Source: a virus
Length of the DNA: 64,000 nucleotides
Reading direction: 5' to 3' (one strand)
UHGV virus genome: UHGV-0033546
Positions within the stretch are counted from its first letter, which is position 1; each line of letters begins with the position of its first letter. Of the stretch, positions 2,873-61,402 are shown one piece after another. A program made the translations under genes and the position numbers. The notes below the pieces were generated by a model that saw nothing but the letters and a program-made list of their open reading frames with translations, had not been told where the DNA came from and ran no database searches.

Positions 2873-3967
2873 ATGGCAATTGTTAAAGAAATAACTGCTG
2901 ATTTAATTAAAAAGTCTGGTGAGAAAATTTCAGCCGGACAGAGTACTAAATCAGAAGTAGCAACTAAAACATACACTGCCCAGTTTCCAACTGGGCGTGC
3001 TAGTGGTAATGACACTACAGGGGACTTCCAGGTAACAGATCTATATAAGAATGGATTATTATTTACTGCATACAATATGTCATCTAGGGATTCTGGAAGT
3101 CTTAGAACGATGAGATCTAACTACTCTTCTTCATCTTCGAGTATTTTACGTACAGCTAGAAACACTATCAGTAATACAGTATCAAAACTATCAAATGGAT
3201 TAGTATCAGATAATAATTCAGGAACAATAAGTAAAGTTCCTGTTGCAAATATTCTTTTACCTAGATCTAAATCTGACGTCGATACGTCATCACATAGATT
3301 TAATGATGTTCAAGATAGTCTTATTACAAAAGGCGGAGGTACTGCTACTGGTGTGCTAAGCAATATGGCTTCAACCGCAGTATTTGGAGCATTGGAAAGT
3401 ATAACACAAGGTATAATGGCTGATAATAATGAACAGATTTATACTACAGCCAGAAGTATGTATGGCGGTGCTGAGAATAGAACTAAAGTGTTCACTTGGG
3501 ATTTGACTCCGCGTTCAACAGAAGATTTAATGGCTATTATTAATATCTATCAGTATTTTAATTATTTTTCTTATGGTGAAACGGGTAAATCTCAATATGC
3601 TGCTGAAATAAAAGGATACTTAGATGAGTGGTATCGTTCTACATTTATTGAACCATTAACTCCAGAAGATGCAGTTAAAAATAAGACGTTATTTGAGAAA
3701 ATGACATCGAGTTTAACGAACGTTCTAGTAGTTTCAAACCCGACAGTTTGGATGGTGAAAAACTTTGGTGCAACATCTAAGTTTGATGGAAAAACGGAAG
3801 TATTTGGCCCATGCCAAATACAGAGTATCAGATTTGATAAAACACCAAATGGTAATTTTAATGGATTAGCTATTGCTCCAAATCTTCCTAGTACATTTAC
3901 CCTTGAGATTACTATGAGAGAAATTATTACGTTAAACCGTGCTTCTTTATATGCGGGGGCTTTCTAA
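2873..3967 (+). CDS. 48: baseplate tail-tube junction protein gp48
   Basis: 364-aa ORF, same length as T4 gp48; synteny. Confidence 0.85.
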   Translation: MAIVKEITADLIKKSGEKISAGQSTKSEVATKTYTAQFPTGRASGNDTTGDFQVTDLYKNGLLFTAYNMSSRDSGSLRTMRSNYSSSSSSILRTARNTISNTVSKLSNGLVSDNNSGTISKVPVANILLPRSKSDVDTSSHRFNDVQDSLITKGGGTATGVLSNMASTAVFGALESITQGIMADNNEQIYTTARSMYGGAENRTKVFTWDLTPRSTEDLMAIINIYQYFNYFSYGETGKSQYAAEIKGYLDEWYRSTFIEPLTPEDAVKNKTLFEKMTSSLTNVLVVSNPTVWMVKNFGATSKFDGKTEVFGPCQIQSIRFDKTPNGNFNGLAIAPNLPSTFTLEITMREIITLNRASLYAGAF

Positions 3968-30543: not shown

Positions 30544-30573
30544 ATAGTACCATGGAAGGACAAGGATGTAAAC
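30544..30573 (-). promoter_or_regulatory. T4-type early promoter
   Basis: - strand GTTTAC (30573-30568), 18 bp, TACTAT (30549-30544); upstream A/T tract. Confidence 0.5.
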
Positions 30574-47833: not shown

Positions 47834-47863
47834 ATAGTACCACAGTATGCTTTGGTTGTAAAC
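47834..47863 (-). promoter_or_regulatory. T4-type early promoter (motA)
   Basis: - strand GTTTAC (47863-47858), 18 bp, TACTAT (47839-47834); conserved leader ACAACTATCAACTACTG. Confidence 0.5.
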
Positions 47864-47919: not shown

Positions 47920-48069
47920 TTACTGCATGACTGTGATAACTGTCATGATAACACGTTGAATTCCGAATGCAAGAAGACCTCCTGCTACGGCAGGAACAAC
48001 ACCTAACCCCGCCAGTAAAATGCCACCGGATACTAATGCGGCGCTTGTAATACCAATGAATGGACTCAT
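47920..48069 (-). CDS. small hydrophobic membrane protein (49 aa)
   Basis: MSPFIGITSAALVSGGILLAGLGVVPAVAGGLLAFGIQRVIMTVITVMQ; ATG overlaps gene 52 stop (ATGA); not in track. Confidence 0.45.
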   Translation of the reverse strand: MSPFIGITSAALVSGGILLAGLGVVPAVAGGLLAFGIQRVIMTVITVMQ

Positions 48070-49394
48070 TTGATTTCCTCTAAATCTTTGGTGTATTCTG
48101 TAACTACATCAGTAGTTTTCCAATATTCGTTTTCTTCTTTTTTAGCTTTAGCTTCTTCAGCAAGTTTCTTTGCTTCGTCGGAAGTCATATGAAAAATATT
48201 CATTCCAACTAGTTTATCAACATAAGAAGAATACATATCAATTTTAGAAAGTTCTTCAGTCAGTTCTTTACGAGTTTTACCTTGCACAACAATTTCACCT
48301 GAAATTACTTTCTTAATGAAATGCGCCTTGGCAAAGGCTAAACGAAATGCTGATTCAGTTTCTTTGATTTTGTTATCAATTCGTTTTTGGACATAAGTTT
48401 TACGAACTTCAACGAAGTCTTTGATTAAATCAACTACGTTATCGTAAACTTGTAGTTTTCCTTTCTCATTAATAACGGTAATATTCTGGGAACGACGCTC
48501 AATCAACCCGAAGTCTTTCATAATTTTTGCATGGCGTTCTTCTTCGTTATCGCTTAAGGAATATTCTTTACGGAATTTAACTTTGAAGCCAAAACCATGC
48601 TCACCGCAAGCATCATCCCACGTAATAAAGCCTTTATCTTCAAGCGGGTCTAAAATTTTGCTCACGTAAGTTTCACGATCATACTTATACGGAATCTCAG
48701 TGATATGCATTTGAGTTCGTGAAGTAAACTTATATGTTCCACGAATTTCATATTGTCCATCAATTTCAACGACTTCACCGCGAAATTCTGGGAATTCTAC
48801 CTTCGGTTTAGTTACTTTCTTTCCTTGAAGAGCTTGTAGTACAGCTTTCTTGACAGAAGAAACACTATGAGGAAGAATGTAAGTTGCATAACCAGTTGCA
48901 ATACCGGAAACACCGTTAAGAAGAACAGTAGGAATAATAGGCAAATAGAAAGCAGGCGGAATGTGTTCTTTATCTTGATGTATCGGAGCATATTCAGTAT
49001 CTTTATATACACTATAGAAATTTTTACTTACACGAGCAAAAATATAACGACTTGCCGCTGCTTTTTGAACGGTACGGGAACCAAAGTTTCCTTGACCATC
49101 TAACAAAGGAAAGTTATTATTCCAAGTGTTAGCCATCAAAGCACCTGCGTCTTGCGCAGAGTTTTCACCATGATGATATCCAAGGTCTGCGACACCACCT
49201 GCAATAGAAGCGAGTTTGTGAAACTTATCTTTATTTCCTCGTGCCAAATCAAGAGCTCGAGCAATAACAAATCGTTGAACTGGCTTAAATCCATCAATCA
49301 TATTTGGAATAGCACGATTTTCAACCGTGTACATAGCATAAGCCAATGCTTCATTATCAATGATACTTTTTAAATCGCGATTATTCAGTTGCAT
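48066..49394 (-). CDS. 52: DNA topoisomerase II medium subunit gp52 (GyrA-like)
   Basis: 442-aa ORF, same length and position as T4 gp52. Confidence 0.9.
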   Translation of the reverse strand: MQLNNRDLKSIIDNEALAYAMYTVENRAIPNMIDGFKPVQRFVIARALDLARGNKDKFHKLASIAGGVADLGYHHGENSAQDAGALMANTWNNNFPLLDGQGNFGSRTVQKAAASRYIFARVSKNFYSVYKDTEYAPIHQDKEHIPPAFYLPIIPTVLLNGVSGIATGYATYILPHSVSSVKKAVLQALQGKKVTKPKVEFPEFRGEVVEIDGQYEIRGTYKFTSRTQMHITEIPYKYDRETYVSKILDPLEDKGFITWDDACGEHGFGFKVKFRKEYSLSDNEEERHAKIMKDFGLIERRSQNITVINEKGKLQVYDNVVDLIKDFVEVRKTYVQKRIDNKIKETESAFRLAFAKAHFIKKVISGEIVVQGKTRKELTEELSKIDMYSSYVDKLVGMNIFHMTSDEAKKLAEEAKAKKEENEYWKTTDVVTEYTKDLEEIK

Positions 49395-49398
49395 AAAT

Positions 49399-49539
49399 TT
49401 ACCATACTAGTGAATGTAGTGCCATAATAACATCAGAAATGAAAAGCACGACTTGAATTAATCCGAACATTACTCCATAATATAGTGCTACCAATAAAGT
49501 AGCAAGGACTAATGAATAGCCCAAGATTTTCTTAATCAT
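49399..49539 (-). CDS. small hydrophobic protein (46 aa)
   Basis: MIKKILGYSLVLATLLVALYYGVMFGLIQVVLFISDVIMALHSLVW; not in track. Confidence 0.45.
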   Translation of the reverse strand: MIKKILGYSLVLATLLVALYYGVMFGLIQVVLFISDVIMALHSLVW

Positions 49540-49693
49540 TTTTAATCATCTTAAGTAAGCCAACAGAAGTAGAAAGCACCCAGGCAATAAACAGAAAACT
49601 TAAGAATACTGGACCTGGGGCCCACACGCCTAAAAAGAAGCAAACCGAACAGACAATAGCCGTAATAAGTTCAATAAAAACCAGAATAACCAT
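49532..49693 (-). CDS. ac: small membrane protein, likely Ac (acridine sensitivity)
   Basis: 53 aa, two hydrophobic segments, GAGGAAAA RBS; position between 52 and stp as T4 ac. Confidence 0.5.
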   Translation of the reverse strand: MVILVFIELITAIVCSVCFFLGVWAPGPVFLSFLFIAWVLSTSVGLLKMIKND

Positions 49694-49703
49694 GTTTTCC
49701 TCA

Positions 49704-49781
49704 TTAGCGTCCGAAGACGCCTTTAGTTTTAAAATTATTACGATAGAATTGCATCACATGTTCGTTATGAAAATTACTCAT
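49704..49781 (-). CDS. stp: Stp peptide (activator of host PrrC anticodon nuclease)
   Basis: 25-codon [28 protein letters not shown] as recalled for T4 Stp; start overlaps ndd stop (TAATG). Confidence 0.7.
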
Positions 49782-50236
49782 TAATATGCCTGCAAAACGA
49801 ATTTAAAGTTATCAGCCAACATACGGTTCATTTCTTCAAGCGTTTGATACTCAGAATGATGATTACGAGTAAACGCTAAAGCTAACTGACCTTTTCCAAA
49901 TCCCGTCGTCAGAGGTTTCATCTTAGAAGCAGGAAGATAAAATACTGCGTATGGAACATTGTTATTTGCAATAGTACGTGCAAGCTGAGACCGACGTTGA
50001 CGAATATGACTTAGAACTGCACTGAACCCTTGCTTAGAACGCTGATTACCTACATAAAATCGTGCAGATACGCATGGACTACTAAATGGACCACCGAGTT
50101 TACTCACTAAAAAGTAAAATCCAGGTTTAGACAAAATGTCTTTGTGCGGAGTTCCCAAAAACCACTCACCACCCTTGATTGTACCAATAACAGTAGCACC
50201 TGCGTTGTTAAGATCAGTAACAGTCATATATTTCAT
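49781..50236 (-). CDS. ndd: nucleoid disruption protein Ndd
   Basis: 151 aa from ATG at 50236 ([13 protein letters not shown]...) with GAGGAAA RBS. Confidence 0.85.
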
Positions 50237-50296
50237 ATTAATTTCCTCTAAATTATTTTCTACTCCAAGGCCGCATGAATACACACGGCCATTAAA

Positions 50297-50512
50297 TTAA
50301 TCGTCGCAGTCGACGCTCAATTCCCAAAACTCTTCTACAGTATAAGTTTCAGTATCATTTTCAATACAGAAACGTTCATTACTGTTATTTGCTAAAGTAG
50401 CATTAACTGTCGGTTTCTCGCTAGTGCTCTTAAGAGGTGAAATACGAATTAATTGATCACCATTATCTAAACAGAAAATTTCGCCAACTTTTACATCTTT
50501 AAAAATTTTCAT
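50297..50512 (-). CDS. hypothetical protein (71 aa)
   Basis: ATG with GAGGTG RBS. Confidence 0.5.
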   Translation of the reverse strand: MKIFKDVKVGEIFCLDNGDQLIRISPLKSTSEKPTVNATLANNSNERFCIENDTETYTVEEFWELSVDCDD

Positions 50513-50520
50513 AATTCACC

Positions 50521-50631
50521 TCAGGGAGTATAAAATCCAAATGCAGTTGTTGACCATCCCATCCAATACGGAAAATTTGCACCAATGTAAAACATAAGAA
50601 TATAAAACCAACCGCTCAGTAAATTCATCAT
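50521..50631 (-). CDS. tiny hydrophobic peptide (36 aa)
   Basis: MMNLLSGWFYILMFYIGANFPYWMGWSTTAFGFYTP; ATG overlaps upstream stop (ATGA). Confidence 0.4.
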   Translation of the reverse strand: MMNLLSGWFYILMFYIGANFPYWMGWSTTAFGFYTP

Positions 50632-50825
50632 TTTACACCATTCCAAATTGTTTCAACCACAGATTTTAAACCATTTTGATGAATATCCATTCCGACTACC
50701 GCCATCAAATAGATTCCAACTACAACTGAACCTAAGGCAAAAATCAGCATGAAAATGAATAAAGCCGGAAAAATATTATCGAAAAACCATTCAATAAATG
50801 TAAAAGCACTGCGTTTACGCTTCAT
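50628..50825 (-). CDS. small membrane protein (65 aa)
   Basis: first ATG at 50825 with GAGGAAA RBS (track start TTG); one TM segment. Confidence 0.45.
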   Translation of the reverse strand: MKRKRSAFTFIEWFFDNIFPALFIFMLIFALGSVVVGIYLMAVVGMDIHQNGLKSVVETIWNGVK

Positions 50826-50832
50826 GTTTTCC

Positions 50833-50946
50833 TCACATAAATCCAAAGTAAGCGTTTAATACATCAATCATTAAAACGATTGGGAATATACTCAAAACTA
50901 CTAGTATTATAACTACATTCCATATAGCTTTAACAATCTTTTTCAT
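50833..50946 (-). CDS. tiny membrane peptide (37 aa)
   Basis: MKKIVKAIWNVVIILVVLSIFPIVLMIDVLNAYFGFM; ATG at 50946 with GGAGGAA RBS; track ORF upstream part is translated promoter. Confidence 0.45.
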   Translation of the reverse strand: MKKIVKAIWNVVIILVVLSIFPIVLMIDVLNAYFGFM

Positions 50947-50974
50947 TTTCTGTTCCTCCGCAGTTGATAGAGTA

Positions 50975-51004
50975 ATAATACCACAGAGGAACAGTCTTGT
51001 AAAC
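50975..51004 (-). promoter_or_regulatory. T4-type early promoter
   Basis: - strand GTTTAC (51004-50999), 18 bp, TATTAT (50980-50975). Confidence 0.45.
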
Positions 51005-51011
51005 AACTTTT

Positions 51012-51110
51012 TTAAAAATATTCGTAATAAATGTGAATACCAACTACTACCGCTGAAACTTGCGCAACCCACCATGCACAAGCAATAAGCACAGAATTCA
51101 AAATTTTCAT
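51012..51110 (-). CDS. tiny hydrophobic peptide (32 aa)
   Basis: MKILNSVLIACAWWVAQVSAVVVGIHIYYEYF; ATG overlaps upstream stop (ATGA). Confidence 0.4.
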   Translation of the reverse strand: MKILNSVLIACAWWVAQVSAVVVGIHIYYEYF

Positions 51111-51193
51111 AATAACCTCATTACAAAAGTAAATGTTAAACAAATTACTGGAATACTAATTAACCAAACAAAACACCACCACAATGAACTCAT
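51107..51193 (-). CDS. tiny hydrophobic peptide (28 aa)
   Basis: MSSLWWCFVWLISIPVICLTFTFVMRLL; ATG overlaps upstream stop (ATGA). Confidence 0.4.
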   Translation of the reverse strand: MSSLWWCFVWLISIPVICLTFTFVMRLL

Positions 51194-51453
51194 AGTTCAA
51201 TCTCAGCGATTTTCATTTCATTACTATTAATAGCCGCTTTAAGACTATCTGAAAGAATTACACACCAGTGGTCATTCATATGACCATTAACTAAGCGTGT
51301 AATTTCTTCAGGAGTTGAAAAATAAGGCGTATCAGACTCCCAATGCGATAGTCCCAAGCGAGTATAAATCATACCTTCATCATCGCTAGAATATTCAACT
51401 GACACAAACTCATCAGTTATTTTATGTTTAGCGTAATAAAATTTAAATTTCAT
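51190..51453 (-). CDS. hypothetical protein (87 aa)
   Basis: ATG at 51453 with GGAGGAG RBS; track N-terminal extension is translated promoter. Confidence 0.5.
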   Translation of the reverse strand: MKFKFYYAKHKITDEFVSVEYSSDDEGMIYTRLGLSHWESDTPYFSTPEEITRLVNGHMNDHWCVILSDSLKAAINSNEMKIAEIEL

Positions 51454-51480
51454 TTTTACTCCTCCGTAGCTGATAGTTGT

Positions 51481-51510
51481 ATAGTACCACAGTCCTTGTG
51501 GTATGTAAAC
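51481..51510 (-). promoter_or_regulatory. T4-type early promoter
   Basis: - strand GTTTAC (51510-51505), 18 bp, TACTAT (51486-51481); inverted repeat ACCACA/TGTGGT in spacer. Confidence 0.5.
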
Positions 51511-51527
51511 CGTTTTGTGAAAAATTT

Positions 51528-52085
51528 TTAAATGGAAAGATACCATCCATTGTAGTTGCTTTTTCTTACAACCTTACGAAGGTCTTCTCTATCACCGATG
51601 AACTTCGGAGTGTACTGGATGACGCCTGGATGAATTTCTTTAGTGTTGAATATAATTATACAGTCTGCGACTTGATGATTCAGAATGGGCCCTAGATTTA
51701 TTCCAGAACCGTATGGATACTCTCCGCTGCATCCTGTTGTTACAGAAATCCAACGTGAGTCGGTTTGATGTGTCTTAACTTCTACACGAAGCCCGCAATA
51801 TCTTGGATGCGCCAATACATCCCATGCGTATGTATACGGGTCATTAACATCCTCTTGGCCTTTGTTAACATACCCGCTTAGCCAATCTGCTACAAAAAAT
51901 TCTGCGTACACCGCGATACGGCATCTTTCGATAACTTCTGCTTTATCCTGGTTCGGGTTTTGTTTTAAAGAGTATCTTGCTGTATCAGCAATTTTGACCT
52001 TCATTTCACTAGTCAAGTCACTGTTCGATAGGGTAAATATCGGAATCTGAAATAGTCTCTGTAGCCCCGGATTCGTTTTCTGCAT
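51528..52085 (-). CDS. denB: endonuclease IV
   Basis: 185-aa ORF in T4 denB position between ndd cluster and rIIB. Confidence 0.8.
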   Translation of the reverse strand: MQKTNPGLQRLFQIPIFTLSNSDLTSEMKVKIADTARYSLKQNPNQDKAEVIERCRIAVYAEFFVADWLSGYVNKGQEDVNDPYTYAWDVLAHPRYCGLRVEVKTHQTDSRWISVTTGCSGEYPYGSGINLGPILNHQVADCIIIFNTKEIHPGVIQYTPKFIGDREDLRKVVRKSNYNGWYLSI

Positions 52086-52347
52086 TTAAACTTTCCTTTT
52101 TACCACTAAGATAAGCGTTATACACTTTAAGAGTACCATAGTAAATTCGATCATTTTCATCTAAAGAATTACGATCAAGTTCATCGAGCTCCTTTTTATC
52201 CATGACTATAATATCATTGCAGTAAAGAAACCCAAGTTTTTCGTGACCAAACTCAAATTTATTGCAGTACACAATATTAGCATGATGGTTTCCGTGCAGT
52301 TTAATCTCTTTTATGTCGGAATCACCGATATTCATACAATAAATCAT
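52018..52347 (-). CDS. hypothetical protein (109 aa)
   Basis: ATG with AAGGAAAA RBS; 3-prime end overlaps denB start by ~68 nt. Confidence 0.45.
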   Translation of the reverse strand: MIYCMNIGDSDIKEIKLHGNHHANIVYCNKFEFGHEKLGFLYCNDIIVMDKKELDELDRNSLDENDRIYYGTLKVYNAYLSGKKESLNAENESGATETISDSDIYPIEQ

Positions 52348-52385
52348 AATTTTTCCTTAAAACAAAAGGGCCGAAGCCCCTTATT

Positions 52386-52580
52386 TTATTTGAATTGTGC
52401 AATTCTTTTCTCTAAACAATCTGCGTAAGATTTCATTGAGATGAACTGTGAAAGCAGCAGTTCTTGCTCAACTGCACTAACTGTTAGAAACTTTGTGCTT
52501 TCTAAAAATTTACTCAGTGCATTAATTTTGAGCAGCAATTGATCGTATTCTTCTTTTACTCGTGCTTGATAACCTAACAT
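52386..52580 (-). CDS. hypothetical protein (64 aa)
   Basis: ATG with AGGAAAA RBS; flanked by GC hairpins. Confidence 0.45.
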   Translation of the reverse strand: MLGYQARVKEEYDQLLLKINALSKFLESTKFLTVSAVEQELLLSQFISMKSYADCLEKRIAQFK

Positions 52581-52608
52581 AATTTTCCTTAGTTAAGGGC
52601 CGAAGCCC

Positions 52609-53547
52609 TTATTTAAATTGTTCAGTAACGTCTTCAACTACTTCGTATTGGCAGGTACGCATTTTAGCATCGTTGTAATCAATCGGAATTGATACTACAT
52701 CGCGAGGATGCACTTTAACTTTTACAACTCGGCTGGTTGAACTGCCAAAGTGACGAATATAAGATTTAGAACACACATGCAGACCACGAGAACAAGTCTG
52801 TGTATCATCGTCATTCACACGAGTACGTGGCATTTTAACTACTTTACCCGGACTGTTATCAAAGGTATTTGAGTGACAGTCAAAGTAATTGCTGCGAACT
52901 ACTTTCCAAGCATAGAAGTAGCCGTCTTCTGTAATTTCAATATCGTTTGCTACCAAGAAATCAAAGAGTCGAGATACCGCTTTTTGGCTCGGGTTTTCCA
53001 ACAGATTTTCCAAGAATGGAAAATAAAATTCAAAGTTTTCGCCTTTTTCCATCGAGTCAAGAATACGATCAACTAAACCAGATCGCAATTCAATATTTTG
53101 ATAGAACAAGCTTCCACCTTCAATTCGAACATCACCGGAAATATATTTTTCAACAGCGCGACGAACGTTAATTTTTTGTGCAGCTTCTTCCAACTTATCT
53201 GCAACAAGCAGATTAAGAATTTCCTGGAAGTTTGAATGAGTATTAGGAGTTGCGTTATAAGTTACACCGTCAACAGTAATTGAAATGAATTTTTTAGATG
53301 CATTCCAAATAATGTCAGATTTAGTAACTGGAGCAATAACTGCATCGCTATTAACTTTAACTGTAATATCACCGCTAATAGTAACTTTAGAGTGTTCAGC
53401 TTCTTCAGCATTTTTCAAAACACGACGGATTGTGTCCACCGATACACCTTGCCAATCAGCCAATTCCTGTTGGGTGTAATTACCACTTGAATACAGTTTA
53501 ACAATTTCAGCTTGTTCGTTTTTGGTGAGGCATTTAATATTGTACAT
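52609..53547 (-). CDS. rIIB: rIIB membrane-associated protein
   Basis: 312-aa ORF, same length and position as T4 rIIB. Confidence 0.9.
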   Translation of the reverse strand: MYNIKCLTKNEQAEIVKLYSSGNYTQQELADWQGVSVDTIRRVLKNAEEAEHSKVTISGDITVKVNSDAVIAPVTKSDIIWNASKKFISITVDGVTYNATPNTHSNFQEILNLLVADKLEEAAQKINVRRAVEKYISGDVRIEGGSLFYQNIELRSGLVDRILDSMEKGENFEFYFPFLENLLENPSQKAVSRLFDFLVANDIEITEDGYFYAWKVVRSNYFDCHSNTFDNSPGKVVKMPRTRVNDDDTQTCSRGLHVCSKSYIRHFGSSTSRVVKVKVHPRDVVSIPIDYNDAKMRTCQYEVVEDVTEQFK

Positions 53548-55975: not shown

Positions 55976-56005
55976 ATTATACCACATCCTTGTGGTAAAG
56001 TAAAC
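55976..56005 (-). promoter_or_regulatory. T4-type early promoter (rIIA region)
   Basis: - strand GTTTAC (56005-56000), 18 bp, TATAAT (55981-55976); inverted repeat ACCACA/TGTGGT in spacer. Confidence 0.5.
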
Positions 56006-61372: not shown

Positions 61373-61402
61373 ATAATACCACAACTAACTGAGGAAGTAA
61401 AC
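61373..61402 (-). promoter_or_regulatory. T4-type early promoter
   Basis: - strand GTTTAC (61402-61397), 18 bp, TATTAT (61378-61373). Confidence 0.5.

What the first reader, a model, noticed from the sequence alone, without database searches (positions are those of the whole stretch)
49399..51453. Chain of at least seven tiny hydrophobic ORFs (25 to 65 codons) translationally coupled by ATGA/TAATG overlaps
Between gene 52 and denB, besides ndd, ac and stp, I read a series of single-TM peptides (46, 53, 36, 65, 37, 32 and 28 aa), most below the ORF-track length cutoff. Several start codons overlap the preceding stop. Such micro-proteins are typical of T-even accessory regions and are candidates for superinfection-exclusion or membrane-targeted host takeover. 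Individual calls are uncertain.
Basis: seen in the sequence. Interest (0 to 1): 0.45.

Follow-up and report, generated by a model that had tools for sequence, protein, structure and literature searches.

The report
Known T4 early membrane micro-protein genes
The seven tiny hydrophobic reading frames are real, conserved early genes of T4-like phages (52.1, the "ac" slot and ndd.2 to ndd.6). They have been annotated for decades and can be lost without harm in the laboratory, so the finding is ordinary, although what they do is still unknown.

Summary
On the minus strand between gene 52 and denB lie hydrophobic ORFs of 46, 53, 36, 65, 37, 32 and 28 codons. Four of them start inside the preceding stop codon.

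They are orthologues of T4 genes:
- 52.1 (Pfam DUF7396)
- ndd.2
- ndd.2a plus ndd.3, read as one 65-codon gene (DUF7248)
- ndd.4, ndd.5 and ndd.6

Each matches a PHROG family, and the frames are kept intact across up to five genera.

- The chain is not continuous. Two T4 early promoters and the soluble genes ndd, ndd.1 and stp split it into three blocks.
- The 53-codon ORF fills the ac slot but is not homologous to T4 Ac. It is a two-helix hairpin cassette typical of Dhakavirus, and it is rare in Tequatrovirus.
- The members without a Shine-Dalgarno site (52.1, ndd.6, stp) are always overlapped by an upstream ORF, even where that ORF has shrunk to eight codons.

Published T4 data show early transcripts, no proteomic detection and no fitness cost on knock-down. 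Deleting the whole region abolishes the stimulation of phosphatidylglycerol synthesis.

The function is unresolved. The most likely role is small inner-membrane modulators of the host envelope.

The parts
51481..51510 (-). T4 early promoter (GTTTAC, 15 nt, TGGTACTAT) driving block A: 87-aa ORF, ndd.6, ndd.5
   Evidence: One of 6 strict motif copies in the window, against 0 expected. It matches the promoter annotated at 1017-1053 of the T4D record X75802.1.
51190..51453 (-). 87-aa soluble ORF (phrog_2390) with a strong Shine-Dalgarno site. Its stop overlaps the ndd.6 start (ATGA). Its last 8 codons (51190-51216, MKIAEIEL*) persist as a mini-ORF in phages that have lost or replaced the gene.
   Evidence: SD -9.5 kcal/mol. 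T4 has an in-frame deletion here. T2 and RB32 carry a different gene but keep the mini-ORF.
51107..51193 (-). ndd.6 orthologue, 28 aa, single hydrophobic helix, no Shine-Dalgarno site, start inside the upstream stop
   Evidence: 100% identical to T4 Ndd.6. Matches phrog_8851 at 1.6e-17. SD -2.7 kcal/mol. 44-50% identical homologues in the fetched Mosigvirus, Dhakavirus and Gaprivervirus loci, with a conserved SIPxIC motif in the first two. dN/dS 0.15.
51012..51110 (-). ndd.5 orthologue, 32 aa, single hydrophobic helix, ATGA overlap with ndd.6
   Evidence: 100% identical to T4 Ndd.5. Matches phrog_5011 at 3.6e-26. dN/dS 0.05. Found only in Tequatrovirus-type loci.
50975..51004 (-). Second T4 early promoter, driving block B: ndd.4, 65-aa ORF, ndd.2, ndd.1
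   Evidence: It matches the promoter annotated at 1296-1332 of X75802.1.
50833..50946 (-). ndd.4 orthologue, 37 aa, basic N-terminus (MKKIVK) followed by one transmembrane helix, strong Shine-Dalgarno site
   Evidence: 92% identical to T4 Ndd.4. Matches phrog_3098 at 3e-21. SD -9.5 kcal/mol. 40-61% identical in three other genera, with conserved KAIWN and SIFPIVxMID motifs. Present in 19 of 22 IMG/VR loci.
50628..50825 (-). 65-aa ORF, the intact form of T4 ndd.3 plus ndd.2a: MKRKR N-terminus, one transmembrane helix and a conserved C-terminal tail NGLKSVVExIWNGxK
   Evidence: Pfam DUF7248, 71.9 bits against a cut-off of 27. Matches phrog_2401. dN/dS 0.13. The tail is conserved in VR25. T4 reference frameshift.
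50521..50631 (-). ndd.2 orthologue, 36 aa, no charged residue, 33% aromatic residues, ATGA overlap with the 65-aa ORF
   Evidence: 97% identical to T4 Ndd.2. Matches phrog_4135. 44% identical in Klebsiella phage P545, with a conserved PYWxGWS motif. dN/dS 0.16.
50297..50512 (-). ndd.1, 71 aa, soluble and acidic. Not one of the micro-membrane ORFs, but the last gene of block B.
49781..50236 (-). ndd (nucleoid disruption protein), first gene of block C, preceded by a stable stem-loop at 50269-50290
   Evidence: Fold of -16.8 kcal/mol, z = -3.5. Annotated as a stem_loop in X75802.1.
49704..49781 (-). stp, 25 aa, not hydrophobic. Its start shares one base with the ndd stop (TAATG). Its 3' end forms an invariant C(UUCG)G hairpin (49706-49721) just before the Shine-Dalgarno site of the ac slot.
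49532..49693 (-). ac-slot ORF, 53 aa, two-helix transmembrane hairpin of family phrog_9347. It is not homologous to T4 Ac. The swapped cassette body is 49541-49684.
   Evidence: Matches phrog_9347 at 1.3e-24, with no hit to phrog_2501. hhalign probability 0.2% against the Ac family. AlphaFold2 gives helices 2-24 and 28-52, pLDDT 84.6. Found in 77 phage records, mostly Dhakavirus. Cassette boundaries.
49399..49539 (-). 52.1 orthologue, 46 aa, one long helix, no Shine-Dalgarno site, start overlapped by 8 nt by the ac-slot ORF
   Evidence: Pfam DUF7396, 81.7 bits against a cut-off of 27. AlphaFold2 gives one helix 2-45, pLDDT 94.7. SD -1.4 kcal/mol. 732 phage records. No relative found in a pattern-seeded scan of 185,579 bacterial and archaeal species genomes. 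Always overlapped by an upstream hairpin ORF in 22 of 22 IMG/VR loci.

Best explanation
This is the 'D region' of a T4-like phage (Tequatrovirus). It is a non-essential early-gene cluster between denB and topoisomerase gene 52.

The seven hydrophobic micro-ORFs are genuine protein-coding genes:
- 52.1
- a Dhakavirus-type hairpin in the ac slot
- ndd.2
- the intact 65-codon ndd.2a/3 gene
- ndd.4, ndd.5 and ndd.6

Proposed mechanism:
1. Host sigma-70 RNA polymerase transcribes them within the first minutes of infection. Transcription starts from two T4-type early promoters, plus read-through from upstream.
2. Translation runs in three blocks. The first ORF after each gap has a strong Shine-Dalgarno site. 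The members that lack one (ndd.6, 52.1, stp) are translated by ribosomes that terminate on the overlapping upstream ORF.
3. The products insert into the inner membrane. Most are single-pass, with the N-terminus in the cytoplasm. The ac-slot protein is a two-helix hairpin.
4. There they act as small modulators of host envelope functions such as permeability or efflux and phospholipid synthesis. They improve fitness only under particular hosts or conditions.

Shown here: gene identity, conservation, promoters, the overlap and Shine-Dalgarno pattern, and hydrophobic helical character.

From the literature on T4: early transcription, dispensability, and the lipid and acridine phenotypes of the region.

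Inferred: membrane insertion and topology, actual translational coupling, and the envelope-modulator role.

My estimates: identity as real conserved genes 0.95; inner-membrane location 0.8; coupling 0.7; envelope-modulator function 0.4.
For: Orthology:
- 92-100% protein identity to T4 52.1, ndd.2, ndd.4, ndd.5 and ndd.6, and to the ndd.2a frame.
- The T4 annotation has the same gene order.
- Pfam DUF7396 and DUF7248 match above their cut-offs.
- Every ORF hits a PHROG at 1e-17 to 1e-30.

Coding selection:
- dN/dS is 0.05-0.16 for ndd.6, ndd.5, the 65-aa ORF and ndd.2.
- Specific motifs are conserved at 40-70% identity across Dhaka-, Mosig-, Gapriver- and Marfavirus.
- Presence in 22 IMG/VR loci is tabulated.

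Promoters:
- Two copies of GTTTAC-N15-TGGTAYTAT lie in the region (6 in the window, 0 expected).
- They correspond to the promoters annotated in the T4D record X75802.1.

Coupling:
- Shine-Dalgarno pairing is -6.0 to -9.5 kcal/mol for the eight region ORFs that follow a gap (4 to 74 nt).
- It is -1.4 to -2.7 kcal/mol for the overlapped ndd.6, stp and 52.1.
- The 87-aa/ndd.6 ATGA junction is kept in four genera.
- T4, T2 and RB32 have lost or replaced the 87-aa gene, yet keep an 8-codon ORF that ends in that ATGA.
- The 52.1 start is overlapped by an upstream hairpin ORF in 22 of 22 IMG/VR loci, whichever of three unrelated families fills the slot.

Structure:
- AlphaFold2 gives confident helices.
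- Hydrophobicity and basic N-termini support membrane insertion.

Literature:
- T4 transcripts of all these genes are classed as early (PMC9697503 Table S2).
- The sa-delta-9 deletion, which removes 52.1 through denB, still gives 50% of wild-type yield. It abolishes the stimulation of phosphatidylglycerol synthesis after infection (PMC6071114).
- T4 Ac is a two-helix membrane protein that sensitises cells to acriflavine (10.1101/2025.06.30.662393).
- CRISPRi-ART scores all these T4 genes 'Not Fit' (PMC11879866 supplement).
Against: - No protein product of any of these T4 genes was detected by proteomics (Class_P = NA in PMC9697503 Table S2). That is expected for tiny hydrophobic proteins, but translation remains undemonstrated.
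- ndd.4 and 52.1 show too few substitutions within Tequatrovirus for a dN/dS test. All of those substitutions in ndd.4, and most in 52.1, are non-synonymous.
- The dN/dS counts are summed over non-independent pairs from 7 genomes.
- The conserved 27 nt upstream of ndd.6 could be conserved as a recombination junction or as a translation-initiation region, not for coupling as such.
- In some distant lineages 52.1 has its own Shine-Dalgarno site.
- No homology links any member to a protein of known function.
- The lipid phenotype maps to a 3.4-kb deletion that also removes ndd, stp, ac and denB.
Confidence: 0.6

Rival explanations
1. Arms-race cassettes. The micro-proteins counter, or are sensed by, membrane-associated host or prophage defence systems. 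This is how the neighbouring rIIA/rIIB genes (against RexAB) and stp (which triggers PrrC) behave. It would explain why the slots are repeatedly swapped.
For: - The ac slot is filled by three unrelated hairpin families, with precise ORF-for-ORF boundaries.
- The 87-aa slot is deleted, replaced or highly diverged among close relatives.
- Sf24 has an extra hairpin gene.
- JS98 carries two ac-slot alleles in tandem.
- The neighbours stp and rII are known defence-interaction genes (T4 annotation; 10.1101/2025.11.20.689424).
- All the genes are dispensable on a laboratory host.
Against: - No member matches a PADLOC family convincingly. The best hit is KwaA at E = 0.0085 on one hydrophobic helix.
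- 52.1, ndd.4 and ndd.6 are conserved rather than diversifying.
- No defence phenotype for these genes was found in the papers read.
Confidence: 0.2
2. Superinfection exclusion. Early membrane proteins would block DNA entry from later-arriving phages, as T4 Imm and Sp do.
For: The timing (early promoters) and the predicted inner-membrane location fit what an exclusion protein needs.
Against: - No similarity to any named Pfam, NCBIfam or PHROG function was found.
- From my own knowledge, T4 exclusion is attributed to imm and sp, which lie elsewhere in the genome. D-region deletions have not been reported to lose exclusion.
Confidence: 0.08
3. Efflux or permeability control only. The ac-slot hairpin, possibly paired with 52.1, replaces T4 Ac functionally and alters drug efflux such as AcrAB-TolC. 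The ndd.x peptides would be unrelated passengers.
For: - The hairpin has the same position, size, two-helix architecture, Shine-Dalgarno site and 8-nt overlap with 52.1 as T4 Ac.
- Ac sensitises cells to acriflavine and ampicillin, and is proposed to block AcrAB-TolC.
Against: - There is no sequence homology to Ac.
- The AcrAB-TolC model for Ac is itself a proposal without direct binding data.
- No acriflavine data exist for phages that carry this allele.
Confidence: 0.15
4. Chance ORFs or purely regulatory upstream ORFs. The T-rich coding strand would produce hydrophobic frames that are not functional proteins.
For: - Composition alone produces some hydrophobic ORFs: shuffle means of 0.35-0.61 per segment.
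- No product was detected by proteomics.
- The 8-codon MKIAEIEL remnant shows that an ORF here can serve only to deliver ribosomes.
Against: - Frames, lengths and specific non-hydrophobic motifs are conserved across genera at 40-70% identity.
- dN/dS is 0.05-0.16.
- Pfam and PHROG families exist for them.
- The plus strand has no such ORFs.
Confidence: 0.03

Closest known systems
Bacteriophage T4 genes 52.1, ndd.2, ndd.2a/ndd.3, ndd.4, ndd.5 and ndd.6 (D region, between rIIB/denB and gene 52)
   Same: Same order, strand, overlaps and promoters. Protein identity is 92-100%. The Pfam and PHROG families are the same.
   Different: - The window has one intact 65-codon gene where the T4 reference annotates ndd.3 plus ndd.2a. 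A re-sequenced T4 clone also has the intact gene.
- The window keeps the 87-aa gene upstream of ndd.6, which T4 has deleted.
- The ndd.4 start used here is 5 codons shorter than the T4 annotation.
T4 Ac (acridine/acriflavine sensitivity protein, phrog_2501)
   Same: The 53-aa ORF occupies the same slot between stp and 52.1. It has the same Shine-Dalgarno context and 8-nt overlap, a similar length, and a two-helix hydrophobic hairpin.
   Different: It is not homologous. It belongs to a different PHROG (9347, not 2501), and profile-profile probability is 0.2%. The family is typical of Dhakavirus and a few other genera and is found in only about 4 Tequatrovirus phages (5 records). No acridine phenotype is known for it. 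The label 'acridine resistance protein' on the AugustSocin copy is positional only.
Bacterial small inner-membrane regulators such as AcrZ (binds AcrB), MgrB and MgtS (from my own knowledge, not tested here)
   Same: They are peptides of 30-65 residues with one transmembrane helix, and they act by binding larger membrane proteins. This is the working model proposed here, and it is the model proposed for T4 Ac.
   Different: No sequence similarity was found (NCBIfam and Pfam at E <= 1). The phage families have no relatives in bacterial genomes (52.1 tested).
Staphylococcal phage PhiNM1 Gp11, a small early membrane protein that inhibits host cell-wall synthesis (PMC11237401; abstract listed)
   Same: It is a precedent for an early phage small membrane protein that targets a host envelope enzyme.
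   Different: The phage and host are unrelated. No homology was tested or expected. The T4 proteins show no fitness effect on knock-down in the laboratory screen.
T4 superinfection-exclusion proteins Imm and Sp
   Same: They are early, small and envelope-located.
   Different: They are encoded elsewhere in T4 (sp and imm.1 appear at other coordinates). No family match was found.

Membership tests
T4 gp52.1 family (Pfam DUF7396, phrog_3595) | Profile match above the curated cut-off over the full length | tested here: met
   81.7 bits against a cut-off of 27, residues 1-46 of 46. phrog_3595 at 3.9e-25.
T4 gp52.1 family (Pfam DUF7396, phrog_3595) | Lies immediately upstream of topoisomerase gene 52 on the same strand, with its start overlapped by the preceding hairpin ORF | tested here: met
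   4-nt gap to gene 52 and 8-nt overlap with the ac-slot ORF. Same arrangement in T4 and in 22 of 22 IMG/VR loci.
T4 Ndd.2a family (Pfam DUF7248, phrog_2401) | Profile match above the curated cut-off | tested here: met
   71.9 bits against a cut-off of 27, residues 6-63. phrog_2401 at 3.4e-30 over residues 1-65.
T4 Ndd.2, Ndd.4, Ndd.5 and Ndd.6 families (phrog_4135, 3098, 5011, 8851) | Full-length profile match and synteny with T4 | tested here: met
   E-values of 1.7e-24, 3.1e-21, 3.6e-26 and 1.6e-17. 92-100% identity to the T4 proteins in the same order.
T4 Ac (acridine sensitivity protein, phrog_2501) | Sequence homology to T4 Ac | tested here: not met
   The 53-aa ORF hits only phrog_9347, while T4 Ac hits phrog_2501. 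tblastn finds no match to the T4-type ac slot at E < 1. hhalign probability is 0.2%. No T4-type Ac is found anywhere in the 64-kb window.
T4 Ac (acridine sensitivity protein, phrog_2501) | Position between stp and 52.1, and a two-helix hydrophobic hairpin | tested here: met
T4 Ac (acridine sensitivity protein, phrog_2501) | Confers acriflavine sensitivity on infected or expressing cells | not testable with these tools
   This needs plating on acriflavine. No data exist for phages with this allele.
T4 early transcription unit | T4 early promoter motif (GTTTAC -35 element and an extended -10 element TGGTAYAAT-like) upstream, on the coding strand | tested here: met
   Sites at 51481-51510 and 50975-51004. 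There are 6 strict copies in the window, all on the minus strand, against 0 expected. They match the promoters annotated in X75802.1.
T4 early transcription unit | Transcripts appear in the first minutes of infection | not testable with these tools
   Shown for the T4 orthologues only (Class_Tx = early in PMC9697503 Table S2).
Translationally coupled gene pairs | The downstream start lies within or next to the upstream stop, and the downstream gene lacks its own Shine-Dalgarno site | tested here: met
   Met for ndd.6, stp and 52.1 (-2.7, -2.5 and -1.4 kcal/mol). ndd.5 and ndd.2 overlap the upstream stop but keep moderate Shine-Dalgarno sites (-6.3 and -5.2 kcal/mol).
Translationally coupled gene pairs | Downstream translation depends on translation of the upstream ORF | not testable with these tools
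   The only support is comparative: an overlapping upstream ORF or mini-ORF is retained.
Integral inner-membrane small proteins | A hydrophobic helix long enough to span the membrane | tested here: met
   19-residue windows have Wimley-White octanol sums of -6 to -17 kcal/mol. AlphaFold2 predicts helices.
Integral inner-membrane small proteins | Protein found in the membrane fraction | not testable with these tools
   The T4 products were not detected at all by proteomics. The labels 'outer membrane' and 'periplasmic' in the annotations are predictions.
Superinfection exclusion proteins (Imm/Sp type) | Homology to a known exclusion protein family | tested here: not met
   No Pfam, NCBIfam or PHROG match other than families of unknown function at E <= 1.

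The most novel reading that the evidence does not exclude
The ac-slot hairpin and 52.1 may form an obligatorily co-translated two-part inner-membrane module. 52.1 would be the constant partner. The hairpin partner has been replaced at least three times by unrelated families: T4 Ac type, the type found in this window, and a Cys-rich FERICK..GVY type.

If so, the window phage is a Tequatrovirus carrying the Dhakavirus partner. It should then differ from T4 in acridine or efflux-related sensitivity.

In addition, one or more of ndd.2 to ndd.6 could be the unmapped determinant of the phosphatidylglycerol stimulation that is lost in the sa-delta-9 deletion.
Probability: 0.2. Interest if true: 0.5.

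Novelty: already known. Interest (0 to 1): 0.18.

Why it matters
As found, it does not matter much. These genes have been in the T4 annotation for decades, and each has a Pfam or PHROG family.

The analysis does clean up several points:
- The 53-aa ORF should not be called Ac.
- T4 'ndd.3' is probably an artefact of a one-base error in the reference sequence, and ndd.2a is really a 65-codon gene.
- Several relatives carry propagated misnomers on these ORFs, such as 'naphthalene 1,2-dioxygenase', 'dNMP kinase' and 'outer membrane protein'.

It also gives a concrete, cheap test set for a long-standing loose end in T4 biology. The questions are which D-region gene changes host lipid synthesis and envelope permeability, and whether the members that lack a Shine-Dalgarno site depend on translational coupling.

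Tried and rejected
- Known RNA families. An Rfam scan of 48900-52700 at E <= 1 gave only a chance microRNA hit.
- Homology to bacterial small proteins or defence proteins. NCBIfam and PADLOC gave nothing credible.
- Paralogy among the seven micro-proteins. All-against-all BLASTP gave no pair below E = 0.07.
- Homology between the 53-aa ORF and T4 Ac. Rejected.
- A T4-type ac gene elsewhere in the window. None found.
- 52.1 relatives in bacterial or archaeal genomes. None found among 185,579 species representatives.
- Literature searches for 'ndd.2a' and related names gave either no papers or only neurodevelopmental-disorder papers.
- No T4 ribosome-profiling study was found.
- No acriflavine data for BASEL phage Bas38 (AugustSocin), which carries the same ac-slot allele.
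- A tblastn search with five micro-proteins concatenated gave usable coverage counts, but the identity values are not interpretable.
- My first promoter pattern used the wrong spacing and found nothing.
- My greedy transmembrane-window script cannot call two helices in proteins of about 50 aa. AlphaFold2 was used for that instead.

Full report
**What is there**

The window is a T4-like phage. The query region is 96% identical at best to Tequatrovirus records and matches 565 phage records. All genes in 47.9-52.6 kb lie on the minus strand.

- 28 aa, 51107-51193
- 32 aa, 51012-51110
- 37 aa, 50833-50946
- 65 aa, 50628-50825
- 36 aa, 50521-50631
- 53 aa, 49532-49693
- 46 aa, 49399-49539

Four soluble genes are interleaved with them: an 87-aa ORF (51190-51453), ndd.1, ndd and stp.

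The junctions are as follows:
- ATGA overlaps at 87-aa/28-aa, 28-aa/32-aa and 65-aa/36-aa
- TAATG at ndd/stp
- an 8-nt overlap at 53-aa/46-aa
- gaps of 4-10 nt at four further junctions
- three gaps of 60-74 nt

**More than chance**

Dinucleotide shuffles of the two micro-ORF segments give 0.61 and 0.35 hydrophobic ATG-ORFs, against 3 and 2 counted by the same conservative rule. The opposite strand has none.

Conservation is the decisive evidence:
- tblastn against ten fetched relatives finds every ORF in frame and full length.
- Nei-Gojobori dN/dS within Tequatrovirus is 0.15 for ndd.6, 0.05 for ndd.5, 0.13 for the 65-aa ORF and 0.16 for ndd.2. This is similar to ndd (0.09) and ndd.1 (0.11).
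- ndd.4 and 52.1 vary too little within the genus to test. Across genera they keep 40-89% identity, with specific motifs: KAIWN...SIFPIVxMID in ndd.4, and LYYG...VLFISDVI...W in 52.1.
- A search with the five ndd micro-proteins concatenated (ndd.6 to ndd.2) covers 80% or more of the query in 490 phage records.
- 52.1 is full length in 732 records.
- In 22 IMG/VR contigs fetched through 52.1, the counts are: 52.1 in 22, ndd.4 in 19, ndd.6 in 16, the 65-aa gene in 11, ndd.2 in 8, and ndd.5 in 5 (Tequatrovirus type only).
- No relative of 52.1 exists in representative genomes of 185,579 bacterial and archaeal species.

That test is clearly passed.

**Identity**

The T4 annotation gives the same order: 52.1, ac, stp, ndd, ndd.1, ndd.2, ndd.2a, ndd.3, ndd.4, ndd.5, ndd.6, denB. 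Identities to T4 are 95.7% (52.1), 97.2% (ndd.2), 91.9% (ndd.4), 100% (ndd.5) and 100% (ndd.6).

52.1 is Pfam DUF7396 and the 65-aa protein is DUF7248, both well above the gathering score. Every ORF hits one PHROG at 1e-17 to 1e-30. So these are known genes of unknown function.

*First, the 65-aa ORF is the intact form of T4 ndd.3 plus ndd.2a.* The T4 reference, and the 1994 T4D entry X75802.1, read ATGAACGTAAACGC. The window and all other relatives read ATGAAGCGTAAACGC. A re-sequenced T4 clone (OL964745.1) is identical to NC_000866 over 1363 nt except for that one extra G, and it has the 65-codon gene. PHROGs lists T4 ndd.3 as a singleton (file 8). 'ndd.3' is therefore most likely a sequencing artefact.

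*Second, the 53-aa ORF is not Ac.*
- It hits phrog_9347, whereas T4 Ac hits phrog_2501.
- tblastn finds it in AugustSocin and JS98 but not in T4, teqhad, Sf24, slur03 or Lv5cm.
- A profile-profile comparison of the two families gives probability 0.2%.
- The family occurs in 77 phage records, mainly Dhakavirus plus Enterobacter, Edwardsiella and Kosakonia phages. Only about four Tequatrovirus phages (five records) carry it.
- The swapped segment is just the ORF body (49541-49684). Upstream it is bounded by the stp 3' end and the Shine-Dalgarno region (GTCTTCGGACGC..TGAGGAAAAyATG). Downstream it is bounded by AATGATTAAGAAAATC, the 52.1 start. Both boundaries are conserved for both allele types.
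- JS98 carries both alleles in tandem, with a stp fragment and a 52.1 fragment between them. That is the footprint of recombination through those flanks.
- AlphaFold2 without an alignment predicts two helices, 2-24 and 28-52, with pLDDT 84.6. So this is a hairpin, not a single-pass peptide.

*Third, the 'chain' is three blocks.* Two copies of the T4 early-promoter motif GTTTAC-N15-TGGTAYTAT lie in the 74-nt and 65-nt gaps, at 51481-51510 and 50975-51004. The strict motif occurs six times in the window, always on the minus strand, against none expected. The two sites are the promoters annotated in X75802.1. The 60-nt gap before ndd holds a stable stem-loop, which is also annotated in X75802.1.

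**Translation**

Pairing energy with the anti-Shine-Dalgarno sequence separates two classes. The eight region ORFs that follow a gap (4 to 74 nt) score -6.0 to -9.5 kcal/mol, which is at or beyond the 5% tail of the window background (-5.9). The overlapped ndd.6, stp and 52.1 score -1.4 to -2.7, close to the background median of -1.2. The overlapped ndd.5 and ndd.2 are intermediate.

Comparative data point the same way:
- The 87-aa/ndd.6 ATGA junction is present in Tequatro-, Mosig-, Dhaka- and Gaprivervirus, even though the 87-aa protein is only 28-67% identical among them.
- T4 has lost the 87-aa gene through an in-frame deletion between two ATGAAA repeats. This leaves the original Shine-Dalgarno site and an 8-codon ORF (MKIAEIEL*) that still ends in the ATGA.
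- T2 and RB32 have an unrelated 68-aa gene in that slot, yet keep the same 8-codon ORF in front of ndd.6.
- In all 22 IMG/VR loci the 52.1 start is overlapped by 1, 4 or 8 nt by a 46-57-aa hydrophobic hairpin ORF. That ORF belongs to one of three unrelated types: T4 Ac type, the window's type, or a type ending in FERICKxxGVYK.
- In most lineages the hairpin has the strong Shine-Dalgarno site and 52.1 has a weak one or none. In the FERICK lineage the pattern is reversed.

This is good indirect evidence for termination-reinitiation. It is not proof. The conserved junctions could also be conserved as recombination joints.

**Proteins**

- 52.1 is predicted as one continuous helix, 2-45, with pLDDT 94.7.
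- 52.1, ndd.4, the 65-aa protein and ndd.5 have basic N-termini (MIKK, MKKIVK, MKRKR, MK) followed by one hydrophobic helix. This suggests an N-in, C-out orientation.
- In the 65-aa protein the most conserved part is the C-terminal tail NGLKSVV(E/D)xIWNGxK, not the membrane helix. That points to a specific interaction outside the membrane.
- ndd.2 has no charged residue and is 33% aromatic.
- The annotation labels 'outer membrane' and 'periplasmic' are old predictions, not data.

**What is known experimentally (T4 orthologues)**

- RNA-seq classes 52.1, ac, stp and ndd.2 to ndd.6 as early transcripts. None of their proteins was detected by mass spectrometry, although Ndd and Ndd.1 were (PMC9697503 Table S2).
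- CRISPRi-ART knock-down scores all of them 'Not Fit', unlike gene 52 (PMC11879866 supplement).
- The sa-delta-9 deletion removes 52.1 through denB. It still yields 50% of wild-type phage, but abolishes the stimulation of phosphatidylglycerol synthesis after infection (PMC6071114).
- T4 Ac, expressed alone, sensitises E. coli to acriflavine and ampicillin. Its authors propose that it blocks AcrAB-TolC (10.1101/2025.06.30.662393).

**Mechanism**

The best-supported reading is that these are early, partly translationally coupled, small inner-membrane proteins that adjust host envelope functions and are beneficial only under some conditions. The steps and their status are set out under 'best explanation'.

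The slot-wise replacement is typical of the plastic periphery of T4-type genomes. Examples here are the ac slot, the 87-aa slot and the extra hairpin gene in Sf24. This pattern keeps an arms-race (defence or counter-defence) role open. Nothing found here supports superinfection exclusion.

**Novelty and score**

The finding is already known. The genes are annotated in T4 and in hundreds of relatives, and they have family entries. The added value is modest:
- a corrected reading of the ac slot and of ndd.3/ndd.2a
- comparative evidence for coupling
- a testable idea that 52.1 and its upstream hairpin form a module with a replaceable partner

Interest is about 0.18.

Noticed in passing
window 50780-50850 (-); L003 (T4 NC_000866) 1549-1629; L013 (OL964745.1) 769-966: The T4 reference and the T4D record X75802.1 lack one G in codon 2 of the 65-codon gene, which creates the annotated 'ndd.3' and 'ndd.2a'. 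A re-sequenced T4 clone differs from the reference over 1363 nt only by this base and has the intact gene. This is probably a reference sequencing error. In the T2 record the same gene is interrupted after 32 codons.
   Followed up: yes
window 51190-51453 (-); L012 995-1125; L014 and L016 330-412: The slot upstream of ndd.6 is highly variable. It holds an 87-aa gene here, a 51-56% identical allele in Sf24, slur03 and Lv5cm, and an unrelated 68-aa gene in T2 and RB32. In T4 the gene is removed by an in-frame deletion. In T4, T2 and RB32, which lack the 87-aa gene, an 8-codon ORF (MKI[A/V]EIEL*, or MKMVEIEL* in RB32) overlapping the ndd.6 start is retained.
   Followed up: yes
L008 (JS98) 560-1104: JS98 carries both ac-slot families in tandem. 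One is an unannotated 53-aa copy at 560-721 that is 90.6% identical to the window's ORF. It is followed by a stp fragment without a start codon and a 52.1 fragment, and then by the Ac-type orf256 and a full stp. This looks like a recombination intermediate.
   Followed up: partly
L005 (Sf24) 2256-2429; L011 (P545) 2937-3122; L036-L038 2331-2504: There is a third family of hydrophobic hairpin micro-proteins, 57-61 aa, with the C-terminal motif F(C)ER(I/L)CK..GVY(K/E). In Sf24 it is inserted between ndd and stp. In some uncultivated T4-like contigs it occupies the slot directly upstream of 52.1.
   Followed up: partly
window 49706-49721 (-): A C(UUCG)G tetraloop hairpin (GGCGUCUUCGGACGC, -9.3 kcal/mol) lies inside the last codons of stp, just before the Shine-Dalgarno site of the ac slot. 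It is invariant in all five aligned sequences, including the diverged JS98 copy. It forms one boundary of the swapped cassette.
   Followed up: partly
window 50269-50290 (-): A stable stem-loop (GGCCGUGUG-UAUU-CAUGCGGCC) lies in the 60-nt gap between ndd.1 and ndd. The 65-nt segment folds at -16.8 kcal/mol with z = -3.5. It is annotated as a stem_loop in the T4D record X75802.1. Its role, whether terminator, RNA-processing site or stabiliser, was not examined.
   Followed up: no
window 47920-48069 (-): motA.1 is a 49-aa Gly/Ala/Val-rich hydrophobic ORF. It starts within the stop codon of gene 52 (ATGA). So the series of overlapped membrane micro-ORFs continues downstream of the reported interval.
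   Followed up: no
window 30544-30573, 47834-47863, 55976-56005, 61373-61402 (all -): Four further strict copies of the T4 early-promoter motif GTTTAC-N15-TGGTAYWAT occur elsewhere in the window. With a relaxed pattern there are 11 copies against 0.15 expected. All are on the minus strand.
   Followed up: no
L006 1522-1632; L015 769-1073; L013 1082-1297; L004, L003: Annotation errors have propagated onto these micro-ORFs in public records. Examples are 'naphthalene 1,2-dioxygenase' (ndd.2 and ndd.1), 'dNMP kinase' (the 65-aa gene in T6), 'chaperone for long tail fiber formation', and 'outer membrane protein' or 'periplasmic protein'. Many records do not annotate 52.1, stp or ndd.6 at all. Examples are AV109 ndd.6 at L009 2130-2216 and the P545 hairpin at L011 2773-2913.
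   Followed up: partly
L002 (AugustSocin) 982-1439: In the closest relative, ndd is annotated in two parts (part 1 and part 2). tblastn shows the two parts in different frames, so there is a frameshift in the nucleoid-disruption gene of that phage.
   Followed up: no
window 52018-52347 (-); L012 397-510: A 109-aa ORF lies between denB.1 and denB and overlaps the denB start. T4D has only a 37-aa version that shares both ends (MIY.MNIGDSDIKE ... SLNAENES..TETISDSDIYPIEQ). This is another in-frame internal deletion in T4 relative to this phage.
   Followed up: no
window 51012-51110 (-), residues 8-11 of ndd.5: LIAC in ndd.5 resembles a lipoprotein lipobox, but only 7 residues precede it. This is too short for a typical signal peptide and is probably coincidental.
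   Followed up: no
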